In this document: positions 1 through 273 of the stretch, one piece after another
How the letters are laid out: each line of letters begins with the position of its first letter
Position numbering within the stretch: the first letter of the stretch is position 1
Origin: Escherichia coli
Lineage (GTDB): Bacteria > Pseudomonadota > Gammaproteobacteria > Enterobacterales > Enterobacteriaceae
NCBI RefSeq assembly: GCF_003334405.1
Contig: NZ_QOWM01000073.1
Direction: 5' to 3' (one strand)
DNA: 273 bases
The notes under the pieces: generated by a model
What the model was told of the DNA's origin: nothing
The model's database searches: none
Seen by the model: the letters and a program-made list of their open reading frames with translations, nothing else
Program-made: the position numbers and the translations under genes

Positions 1-88
1 TGCGGTCCGTCTTCTCCGTCAGCCTGCCGTATTCATCGTGGCGGTAGACATAGTGCGCATCCTCCGCGATGCGGTTAACCACCCGTGC
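1..88 (-). CDS. Rhs-family YD-repeat core, downstream segment in a frame offset by one nucleotide from the upstream segment; continues beyond position 1
   Basis: Reverse-complement frame whose codons include plus 74-76 (AAC, Asn) translates to ARVVNRIAEDAHYVYRHDEYGRLTEKTDR. It is closed on its 5' side by TGA (complement of 89-91). The HDEYGRLTEKTD motif is classic Rhs core. No ATG in this frame within the window; a GTG (complement of 80-82) exists but I see no Shine-Dalgarno-like sequence upstream of it, so independent initiation is unsupported. Confidence 0.7.
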
Positions 89-228
89 TCATCATACTGC
101 CACTGCTCTGCCGGGTCGCCGTTCACCGTCCGGTGCGTGATGCGGTCCGACGCATCGTAGTGCCAGAGGGTGATAAGCCCCTCATCTTCACTCTGCGTGA
201 GTTTTCCGGTCAGGTCATAATGATAACG
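11..228 (-). repeat. Tandem YD-repeat coding units (protein-level periodic repeat of the Rhs shell), about 60 nt period
   Basis: Asp codons of the successive YD/HD dipeptides lie at reverse-complement positions 58-60, 118-120, 181-183 and 237-239 (spacings 60, 63 and 56 nt; the last is not a multiple of 3 because of the frame switch). Short DNA-level echoes of the repeat are also visible, e.g. TGCGGTCCG at 1-9 and 141-149, and GATGCGG at 68-74 and 139-145. Confidence 0.6.
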
Positions 229-273
229 TTGCGTCCGCCCGTCAAAGCCGCCCTGCTGTACCAGCCGGTCCAG
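19..273 (-). CDS. Rhs-family YD-repeat core protein, upstream (N-proximal) segment; 5' end lies beyond position 273; Rhs-like through about position 73, then 17 aberrant codons and a TGA stop (complement of 19-21)
   Basis: Reverse-complement frame starting at plus 273 is open for 84 codons and translates to LDRLVQQGGFDGRTQRYHYDLTGKLTQSEDEGLITLWHYDASDRITHRTVNGDPAEQWQYDEHGWLT, then ASRRMRTMSTATMNTAG and stop. Repeated Y/W-x-Y-D-x-x-(G/D)-(R/K)-(L/I)-T motifs at about 20-codon spacing (plus 193-228, 133-168, 73-105) are the YD-repeat signature. Paralog cannot be assigned from 273 nt. Confidence 0.8.
   Translation of the reverse strand: MDRLVQQGGFDGRTQRYHYDLTGKLTQSEDEGLITLWHYDASDRITHRTVNGDPAEQWQYDEHGWLTASRRMRTMSTATMNTAG
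73..80. other. Perfect 8-bp palindrome GGTTAACC (contains an HpaI recognition sequence GTTAAC) located exactly at the point where the Rhs reading frame switches
   Basis: Read directly: plus 73-80 = GGTTAACC, which is its own reverse complement. The last Rhs-like codon of the upstream frame (ACC, Thr, complement of 73-75) and the first Rhs-like codon of the downstream frame (AAC, Asn, complement of 74-76) overlap within it. Confidence 0.9.

What the first reader, a model, noticed from the sequence alone, without database searches (positions are those of the whole stretch)
19..72. Upstream frame would yield a truncated Rhs ending in a 17-residue out-of-frame tail
If the sequence is correct, translation from the upstream part terminates at TGA (complement of 19-21) after ASRRMRTMSTATMNTAG. 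The product would lack the remainder of the YD shell, the autoproteolysis region and the C-terminal toxin, so it would not be a functional Rhs effector. The downstream segment has no obvious start signal (only an unsupported GTG at complement 80-82), so it is more likely an untranslated remnant than an independently expressed fragment. I found no slippery heptamer at the junction that would suggest programmed frameshifting.
Basis: inference. Interest (0 to 1): 0.45.

Follow-up and report, generated by a model that had tools for sequence, protein, structure and literature searches.

The report
Deletion scar in a dead Rhs gene
The window is the scar of a 622-base deletion inside an E. coli Rhs toxin gene, which leaves an ordinary dead gene; the only unusual point is that one end of the deletion sits at the centre of a 16-base palindrome where four other independent E. 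coli rearrangements also end.

Summary
On the minus strand, an Rhs YD-repeat frame runs to ...YDEHGWLT, then reads ASRRMRTMSTATMNTAG and stops at TGA (complement of 19-21).

The cause is a 622-bp deletion (3x207+1), not a small indel. It removes nt 2194-2815 of an intact 4224-nt RhsE-locus gene and has a 5-bp TAACC overlap at window 73-77.

The junction occurs in 1 of 5426 complete E. coli genomes (strain C1). RefSeq already annotates that gene as a frameshifted, incomplete pseudogene. It also occurs on an independent 229-bp NCBI draft contig, so it is not a sequencing artefact. In C1 the same gene is also split by an 18.2-kb resistance transposon.

The GTG at complement 80-82 has no Shine-Dalgarno support, there is no slippery heptamer, and the frame break is not conserved. 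The finding is ordinary.

Side observation: the left deletion end is the centre of a perfect 16-bp palindrome, GGGTGGTT|AACCACCC. Five independent rearrangements, including the one that made the K-12 rhsE pseudogene, have an endpoint compatible with that centre. This suggests a palindrome-driven breakage hot spot. The mechanism is inferred, not shown.

The parts
78..273 (-). Rhs YD-repeat coding segment upstream of the deletion. With 73-77 it equals nt 1993-2193 of the intact 4224-nt RhsE-locus CDS (L001 6001-6201). It is read in the native frame: LDRLVQQGGFDGRTQRYHYDLTGK...WQYDEHGWL.
   Evidence: Exact 201-nt match to L001; translation; NCBIfam RHS_core and YD_repeat hits for the fragment in strain C1.
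73..77 (-). Deletion junction. The 5-bp microhomology TAACC is present at both ends of the deleted 622 bp in the intact allele (CDS nt 2189-2193 and 2811-2815).
   Evidence: The prefix (201 nt) and suffix (77 nt) matches overlap by 5 nt; deleted length is 622, which is 1 mod 3.
73..84 (-). Remnant (GGGTGGTTAACC, 12 of 16 nt) of the perfect 16-bp palindrome GGGTGGTT|AACCACCC of the intact allele. The palindrome centre (CDS 2189|2190) is the left deletion endpoint.
   Evidence: the repeat finder I5: 8-nt arms, 100% complementary, 0 nt apart, at L001 6190-6205. DNA fold gives a 6-bp stem with a TTAA loop.
22..72 (-). The 17 out-of-frame codons (ASRRMRTMSTATMNTAG) read from the upstream frame. In its own frame this DNA encodes the downstream Rhs segment (N)RIAEDAHYVYRHDEYGRL.
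   Evidence: Exact 77-nt match of window 1-77 to L001 6819-6895, which is CDS nt 2811-2887.
19..21 (-). TGA stop that ends the upstream frame.
   Evidence: ORF 19..126 on the minus strand; translation.
1..72 (-). Start of the downstream Rhs core segment (CDS nt 2816-2887), in the -1 frame relative to the upstream part. In strain C1 this frame stays open for 472 codons to the native stop.
   Evidence: ORF L002 9034..10452. NCBIfam RHS_core positions 941-1261 plus Rhs_assc_core.
80..82 (-). GTG, the first start-like codon of the downstream frame. It is preceded by TGA TGA and has no ribosome-binding site.
   Evidence: Anti-SD duplex energy is -2.1 kcal/mol against a strand mean of -4.4; 83% of the windows on the strand pair at least as well.
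56..73 (-). Small inverted repeat CGCATC-GCGGAG-GATGCG, whose 5' base abuts the right deletion endpoint.
   Evidence: the repeat finder I16, L001 6823-6840. The fold is not better than shuffles, z = 0.1 to 0.3, so this is only a positional note.

Best explanation
The window is the junction of a 622-bp internal deletion in the rhs gene of the E. coli RhsE locus (yncH - vgrG - rhs - ydcD - ISAs1). The deletion joins core nt 2193 to nt 2816 across a shared TAACC. It removes about 207 codons of the YD-repeat shell and shifts the frame by one base. Ribosomes reading the upstream part therefore add 17 unrelated residues and stop at TGA. The downstream shell, the autoproteolytic Rhs-associated core domain and the toxin are left in another frame without a usable start.

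The gene is a pseudogene. In the one complete genome that carries the junction, it is also cut in two by an 18.2-kb Tn5393-type resistance island, so the upstream part has no native start either. The downstream ydcD gene, generally taken to be the immunity gene, stays intact.

How the deletion arose is inferred. The left end is the centre of a perfect 16-bp palindrome. A hairpin or cruciform there probably caused a break or a replication template switch, which was then resolved by short-homology joining 622 nt downstream.

The confidence given (0.9) is for the deletion and pseudogene reading. For the palindrome mechanism alone it is about 0.45.
For: Shown:
- The window splits into two exact matches to an intact allele, 622 bp apart, with a 5-nt overlap.
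- The window is 100% identical to strain C1, where PGAP labels the gene 'frameshifted; incomplete; missing N-terminus'.
- The C1 fragments cover RHS_core profile positions 297-736 and 941-1261 of 1261, scoring 932 and 716 bits against a 2000-bit cut-off.
- The same junction is on the independent NCBI draft contig NLLK01000130.1 (229 bp, equal to window 23-251, seen in 3 samples). Its partial protein is WP_172818024.1 / MBB9097252.1.
- Only 1 of 5426 complete genomes has the junction in one piece. None of 60 metagenome contigs that carry the left flank is broken there.
- There is no SD sequence and no slippery site.
- The transposon ends flank a 5-bp duplication, TATCC, at CDS nt ~877-881, with vgrG and the 5' 881 nt of rhs on the far side.
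- ydcD is intact.

For the mechanism:
- The palindrome is perfect and has no spacer between its arms.
- Five different junctions are each compatible with a break at its centre. These are K-12 rhsE (410 genomes), Z1323HEC0011 (ansP|rhs), ET881/SW071610 (vgrG|rhs), the FORC_081 300-bp deletion, and C1/the window.
Against: - The genome the window comes from is not known. It may or may not carry the transposon seen in C1.
- No reads, RNA-seq or proteomics were available, so 'untranslated' is an inference.
- A 16-bp palindrome is far shorter than the 246-460-bp palindromes shown experimentally to be cleaved in E. coli (PMC4245961). The DNA hairpin is only modestly stable, -6.6 kcal/mol, z = -2.3.
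- The small hairpin at the right end is not statistically notable: there are 31 inverted repeats of 6 nt or more in the CDS, and the fold z-score is about 0.
- The palindrome centre is also an HpaI-type site, GTT^AAC, so a restriction break fits the positions equally well.
Confidence: 0.9

Rival explanations
1. Sequencing or assembly artefact. On this reading the junction is a chimeric short contig or an indel error, and the real gene is intact.
For: The window is only 273 bases and is probably a whole short contig from a draft assembly. A nested 229-bp NCBI contig exists. Rhs paralogues are repeats that break short-read assemblies (median 3 places per genome).
Against: The difference from the intact gene is 622 bp, not a base or two. 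The identical junction is embedded in a closed chromosome (strain C1). It also appears in independent draft assemblies under different accessions.
Confidence: 0.03
2. Programmed -1 ribosomal frameshifting at the junction yields a shortened but functional Rhs protein.
For: The downstream frame is -1 relative to the upstream frame. It is open from complement 88 onward, so the two frames overlap by about 70 nt.
Against: There is no X XXY YYZ heptamer in any frame and no homopolymer run of 5 or more. No stable downstream structure is predicted (z = 0.3). The arrangement occurs in 1 of 5426 genomes, while intact alleles have one continuous frame. Even a fused product would lack about 207 shell residues and, in C1, its N-terminus.
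Confidence: 0.01
3. The downstream fragment is kept as an orphan toxin module. It would be expressed at a low level from an internal start, or serve as a recombination reservoir, together with the intact ydcD immunity gene.
For: A 472-codon frame stays open to the native stop, with internal ATGs that have moderate SD pairing (L002 9262 at -6.4 and 9307 at -6.3 kcal/mol). ydcD is intact. 5'-truncated rhs fragments followed by ydcD are common: the K-12 type is in 410 genomes. Partial cores with C-terminal tips are proposed to contribute to rhs variability (PMC3032704).
Against: The GTG in the window has no SD. A fragment without the N-terminal domain and a closed shell cannot be loaded on VgrG as Rhs effectors are (PMC8765631). 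Openness of the frame is expected for a recent deletion. No expression data exist.
Confidence: 0.08
4. Alternative origin of the deletion. A restriction-type double-strand break at GTT^AAC (HpaI/HincII specificity) is repaired by end joining, instead of a hairpin-driven event.
For: All five junctions are compatible with a blunt cut between T2189 and A2190, with that end unresected.
Against: A second GTTAAC (within GGTTAACC) at CDS nt 1752 is not an endpoint in any allele examined, 0 against 5. I know of no such enzyme common in E. coli (own knowledge, not tested).
Confidence: 0.12

Closest known systems
E. coli K-12 rhsE pseudogene (b1456) and other decayed rhs genes
   Same: It sits at the same chromosomal locus (yncH ... 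ydcD - yncO - ISAs1 - pptA) with the same C-terminal toxin region and ydcD. It is an rhs gene inactivated by deletion. The K-12 deletion ends at the same palindrome centre. Frameshifted rhs pseudogenes are reported in E. coli W and K-12 (PMC3032704).
   Different: K-12 lost everything upstream of nt 2188, including vgrG. This allele keeps nt 876-2193 and loses nt 2194-2815, and in C1 it carries a transposon split. The two arose from different events with different partner sites.
Functional T6SS Rhs effectors (for example P. protegens RhsA, PDB 7q97; P. aeruginosa Tse5, PDB 8cp6)
   Same: The intact allele aligns with solved Rhs cocoons at E = 3e-123 and 2e-89. [quoted passage not shown]
   Different: The function of these effectors depends on a closed cocoon sealed by an N-terminal plug, with N- and C-terminal autocleavage (PMC8765631). 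This allele has lost about 207 shell residues and its reading-frame continuity, and in C1 its N-terminal third is detached.
Palindrome-associated deletion and rearrangement in E. coli (Glickman and Ripley 1984 for short palindromes, own knowledge; SbcCD cleavage of long palindromes, PMC4245961, PMC3315005)
   Same: A deletion endpoint lies at the symmetry centre of a perfect palindrome, short homology is found at the joint, and the site is used repeatedly.
   Different: The palindrome is only 16 bp and lies inside a coding sequence (GWLTT). The evidence comes from natural alleles, not an assay, and dependence on SbcCD or replication is untested.

Membership tests
Rhs element core protein (NCBIfam NF041261, equivalog) | Full-length match to the 1261-position core profile above the 2000-bit cut-off | tested here: not met
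   The intact allele scores 2767 bits over profile positions 1-1261. The C1 fragments score 932 bits (positions 297-736) and 716 bits (positions 941-1261).
Rhs element core protein (NCBIfam NF041261, equivalog) | YD repeats | tested here: met
   TIGR01643 YD_repeat_2x matches the upstream fragment at E = 9e-52 with 6 stretches. The window translation contains the YD motifs YHYD, WHYD and WQYD.
Functional T6SS Rhs effector | One continuous reading frame from the N-terminal VgrG-binding or plug region through the shell, the Rhs-associated core (autoproteolysis) domain and the toxin | tested here: not met
   The frame breaks at window 72/73 and stops at 19-21. The Rhs_assc_core domain is found only in the downstream, out-of-frame fragment. 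In C1 the 5' 881 nt are separated by 18.2 kb of transposon.
Functional T6SS Rhs effector | Cognate vgrG upstream and immunity gene downstream | tested here: met
   vgrG lies upstream of the locus and ydcD is intact downstream (YdcD_fam, E = 4e-63). The immunity role of ydcD is assumed from its position and was not tested.
Programmed -1 ribosomal frameshift site | Slippery heptamer X XXY YYZ in the overlap of the two frames | tested here: not met
   None was found in any frame of the window.
Programmed -1 ribosomal frameshift site | Conservation of the two-frame arrangement among homologues | tested here: not met
   The junction is present in 1 of 5426 complete genomes and 0 of 60 metagenome contigs. 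Homologues have a single frame.
Palindrome-associated illegitimate deletion | Endpoint at or in a perfect or near-perfect palindrome | tested here: met
   The left endpoint interval, CDS 2188-2193, contains the centre (2189|2190) of the 16-bp perfect palindrome.
Palindrome-associated illegitimate deletion | Recurrent, independent use of the same site | tested here: met
   Five junctions with different partner sequences share the site.
Palindrome-associated illegitimate deletion | Dependence on hairpin formation or processing (SbcCD, replication) | not testable with these tools
   This needs genetics. Only a predicted DNA hairpin is available, -6.6 kcal/mol, z = -2.3.

The most novel reading that the evidence does not exclude
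The perfect 16-bp palindrome GGGTGGTT|AACCACCC inside the RhsE-type core (encoding GWLTT) is a true mutational hot spot. Hairpin or cruciform formation at a palindrome this short would repeatedly cause breaks or template switches at its centre in natural E. coli populations. It would have generated the classic K-12 rhsE pseudogene and at least four other independent rearrangements, including this one. That would be an unusually clean natural record of short-palindrome fragility.
Probability: 0.45. Interest if true: 0.4.

Novelty: already known. Interest (0 to 1): 0.15.

Why it matters
The finding itself matters little. It is one more decayed rhs gene, already flagged as a frameshifted pseudogene in RefSeq. 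It has no sign of recoding or of an independently expressed product.

It has some practical value. A short 'RHS repeat protein, partial' contig of this kind is a deletion junction, not a novel protein.

The side observation could interest people who study genome instability. Five independent natural rearrangements end at the centre of one 16-bp palindrome, and this can be tested with a simple reporter and sbcCD or replication mutants.

Tried and rejected
- **Small-indel frameshift or sequencing error.** Rejected: the two halves lie 622 bp apart in intact alleles.
- **Programmed frameshift.** Rejected: there is no slippery site, no structure and no conservation.
- **Independent start at the GTG.** Rejected: no SD pairing. 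The single promoter-like match, at minus 245-217, lies inside the coding sequence far upstream and is only a 9/12 consensus hit.
- **Structured RNA in the window.** No Rfam match at E <= 1.
- **Metagenome scan for the 34-nt junction.** Returned 0 hits.
- **Exact-sequence look-up of ten candidate ORF products of the C1 pseudogene.** None of the products that end in the frameshifted tail is in the collection, apart from the 76-aa partial protein. I therefore could not tell whether other carriers also have the transposon (two earlier attempts failed because the service was busy).
- **Junction queries for the FORC_081 and MSB1_8G alleles.** Uninformative: intact alleles are joined into two-piece hits.
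- **Breakpoints of the O157-type and MARGA_3 truncations.** These turned out to be IS-bounded (ISAs1, IS3) and unrelated to hairpins.
- **Site near GTCGAC upstream of vgrG as a HincII-type cut.** Rejected, because the K-12 left block extends past the would-be cut.

Full report
**1. The observation**

The minus strand of the window encodes Rhs YD-repeat sequence. Frame 1 reads LDRLVQQGGFDGRTQRYHYDLTGKLTQSEDEGLITLWHYDASDRITHRTVNGDPAEQWQYDEHGWLT. It then reads ASRRMRTMSTATMNTAG and stops at TGA.

The tail is 17 codons, at complement 72-22, and the stop is at complement 21-19. Frame 3 carries the continuation VVNRIAEDAHYVYRHDEYGRLTEKTDR. A GTG lies at complement 82-80, just after TGA TGA.

**2. 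What the discontinuity is**

Megablast against 5426 complete E. coli genomes places the window in rhs genes at 100% identity, but in two pieces spanning 895 bases of the record.

I compared the window with an intact allele: strain 720632, 'RHS element core protein' WP_001547367.1, 1407 aa, CDS at L001 4009-8232, with vgrG upstream and ydcD downstream.
- The first 201 nt of the minus strand equal CDS nt 1993-2193.
- The last 77 nt equal CDS nt 2811-2887.
- The two matches overlap by 5 nt, TAACC, at window 73-77.

The window is therefore the junction of a 622-bp deletion. Because 622 = 3 x 207 + 1, the frame shifts. This is not a small indel, so no corrected base call could restore one frame.

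**3. Context**

A 76-nt query across the junction is contiguous in only one of the 5426 genomes. That genome is strain C1 (NZ_CP195942.1, wastewater, Panama), which matches all 273 bases exactly.

The locus is the one that holds the rhsE pseudogene in K-12: yncG-yncH ... ydcD-yncO-ISAs1-pptA. PGAP annotates the C1 gene as 'RHS repeat-associated core domain-containing protein; frameshifted; incomplete; missing N-terminus'.

The gene in C1 carries a second lesion.
- vgrG and the first 881 nt of rhs lie 18.2 kb upstream.
- They are separated from the rest by a Tn5393-type island carrying aph(6)-Id, aph(3'')-Ib, tet(B) and TEM-1.
- The island's terminal inverted repeats flank a 5-bp target duplication, TATCC, at CDS nt ~877-881.

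The remaining pieces cover RHS_core (NF041261) profile positions 297-736 and 941-1261. They score 932 and 716 bits against a 2000-bit cut-off. The Rhs-associated core domain is only in the downstream piece, and ydcD is intact.

The only open frame enters from inside the transposon end.

**4. Real or artefact, and how common**

A protein search with the junction peptide found the NCBI partial protein 'RHS repeat protein, partial [Escherichia coli]' (76 aa; WP_172818024.1, MBB9097252.1). It lies on a 229-bp contig of draft assembly GCA_002228565.1 that was seen in 3 samples. That contig equals window 23-251.

The window, whose source is 273 bases long, is therefore most likely a whole short contig itself. 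The unique junction would assemble alone between repeated rhs sequence; this is inference.

The same junction thus appears in independent drafts and, in C1, inside a closed chromosome. That argues against a chimera. The allele is rare:
- 1 of 5426 complete genomes carries it.
- A metagenome scan found no copy of the 34-nt junction.
- None of 60 metagenome contigs carrying the left flank is broken at that point.

**5. Translation signals**

The GTG at complement 82-80 has an anti-SD duplex energy of -2.1 kcal/mol. 83% of the 20-nt windows on the strand pair at least as well.

There is no X XXY YYZ heptamer in any frame and no homopolymer run of 5 or more. The junction region does not fold better than shuffled sequence, z = 0.3. 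Rfam finds nothing.

A frameshifted product would still lack about 207 shell residues. Solved Rhs effectors need a closed cocoon, an N-terminal plug and two autocleavages (PMC8765631). The intact allele aligns with such structures.

A weak alternative remains. The 3' fragment plus the intact ydcD might persist as an orphan module, as truncated rhs fragments commonly do (PMC3032704).

**6. How the deletion probably arose (partly inferred)**

In the intact allele the left endpoint lies in GGGTGGTT|AACCACCC. This is a perfect 16-bp palindrome with no spacer between its arms, at L001 6190-6205, with its centre at CDS 2189|2190. About 0.06 palindromes of this kind would be expected by chance in 4.2 kb (4224 x 4^-8, my arithmetic). 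As single-stranded DNA it folds into a 6-bp stem with a TTAA loop, -6.6 kcal/mol, z = -2.3.

While comparing orthologous loci I found four further rearrangements with different partner sequences. Each has an endpoint interval that includes that centre.

| Allele | Junction | Overlap at the joint | Frequency |
|---|---|---|---|
| K-12 rhsE pseudogene | yncH-vgrG intergenic region joined to CDS 2188-2191 | TTA | 410 genomes |
| Z1323HEC0011 | ansP joined to CDS 2189-2191 | TA | 1 genome |
| ET881 and SW071610 | vgrG joined to CDS 2189-2191 | TA | 2 genomes |
| FORC_081 | 300-nt deletion whose left block ends at CDS 2189/2190 | A | 1 genome |
| C1 / the window | 622-bp deletion whose left block ends at CDS 2188-2193 | TAACC | 1 genome |

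K-12 was chosen as a reference, not for its breakpoint. The other alleles turned up in searches that did not require a shared endpoint. Such a pile-up in a 4.2-kb gene is very unlikely by chance.

The simplest reading is palindrome-associated breakage or template switching, followed by short-homology joining. This phenomenon is known for short palindromes (Glickman and Ripley 1984, own knowledge) and for long ones (PMC4245961, PMC3315005).

Four caveats apply.
- 16 bp is very short compared with the palindromes tested experimentally.
- The centre is also a GTT^AAC site, so a restriction-type break fits as well. However, the second GTTAAC in the gene, at nt 1752, is not used in any allele examined.
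- The small hairpin at the right endpoint (window 56-73) is not statistically notable.
- Five-base direct repeats are abundant: 11,203 pairs lie 100-2000 nt apart in the core. TAACC alone therefore does not explain the choice of site.

**7. Comparison with known kinds**

This is an rhs pseudogene. It has YD repeats and an rhs locus context. It fails the full-length core criterion and the continuity criterion for a functional effector.

Decay of rhs genes is common and takes several routes.
- Frameshifted rhs genes are reported in E. coli W and K-12 (PMC3032704).
- IS-bounded truncations occur in an O157-type allele and in MARGA_3.
- A chimeric, frameshifted class lies near yafV and made up 7 of 60 sampled records.
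- Internal core deletions occur in 4 of 60 metagenome contigs.

It is not a programmed frameshift site: both defining features that I tested failed.

**8. Verdict**

The object is already annotated as a pseudogene, so the finding is ordinary.

The one thing worth keeping is the recurrent breakpoint at the palindrome centre. I found no paper in the searched library linking Rhs with palindrome breakpoints. A systematic breakpoint survey and a reporter assay would settle it.

Noticed in passing
window 73-84 (minus strand); L001 6190-6205; also L006 ~3904, L067 ~3001, L072 ~4011, L003 ~4040: Five independent rearrangements have an endpoint compatible with the exact centre of the perfect 16-bp palindrome GGGTGGTT|AACCACCC in the rhs core. 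They are K-12 rhsE, Z1323HEC0011 (ansP|rhs), ET881/SW071610 (vgrG|rhs), the FORC_081 300-nt deletion, and C1/the window.
   Followed up: partly
L071 19271 to L002 7726 (NZ_CP195942.1 ~1599271-1617493): In strain C1 an 18.2-kb Tn5393-type multiresistance island (strAB, Tn10 tet(B), Tn3/TEM-1, ISKpn26) is inserted in the chromosomal rhs gene, with a 5-bp target duplication TATCC. It splits vgrG and the rhs 5' end from the rest of the gene.
   Followed up: yes
L004 1851-5798 (NZ_LR890603.1, strain MSB1_8G; also MSB1_1A): This rhs allele has an in-frame 276-nt deletion (CDS nt 2542-2817) and is annotated as an intact 1315-aa protein. Its right end lies 2-7 nt from the right end of the window's deletion, inside the same small inverted repeat. 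Whether a cocoon lacking 92 residues is functional is unknown. ydcD is frameshifted there.
   Followed up: partly
L003 3014-5773 (NZ_CP029057.1, strain FORC_081): This is a triply damaged allele. The first lesion is a 5' deletion from the yncH-vgrG spacer to CDS nt 770, whose left end is 21 nt from the K-12 left end. The second is a deletion of about 380 nt between two ...PDG... YD repeats. The third is the 300-nt deletion that starts at the palindrome centre.
   Followed up: partly
L068 3075-6735 (NZ_CP128590.1); metagenome loci L013, L036: A common class made up 7 of 60 sampled records. It is a frameshifted, chimeric rhs pseudogene near yafV/ivy. Its 5' part is only about 75% identical to the RhsE-locus core, and it is joined at about nt 2294 to nt 2858 of an RhsE-like 3' part plus ydcD. 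It looks like recombination between divergent rhs paralogues, with loss of about 565 nt in the same region as the window's deletion.
   Followed up: partly
L069 1853-4752; L070 1815-4557: The O157-type and MARGA_3 rhs/ydcD fragments start directly after an ISAs1-family and an IS3-family element (at CDS nt 2470 and 2668). These truncations are IS-mediated, a different route to the same kind of remnant.
   Followed up: partly
window 1-273 versus L005 (NLLK01000130.1, 229 bp = window 23-251): The window extends the NCBI 229-bp contig by exactly 22 nt on each side. This fits the same junction unitig assembled with a different k-mer size. The window is therefore probably a complete contig of another draft assembly, not an excerpt.
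   Followed up: no
metagenome loci L019 and L021: Further internal rhs core deletions occur in metagenome contigs: nt 2969-3158 (190 nt, frameshifting) in L019, and nt 307-1494 in L021. This shows that internal deletions of the YD-repeat core are frequent in nature.
   Followed up: no
window 217-245 (minus strand): There is a single sigma-70-like match (TTGACG, 17-nt spacer, CATTAT; 9 of 12) inside the coding sequence. About 0.2 such matches are expected in shuffles. There is no reason to think it is used.
   Followed up: no
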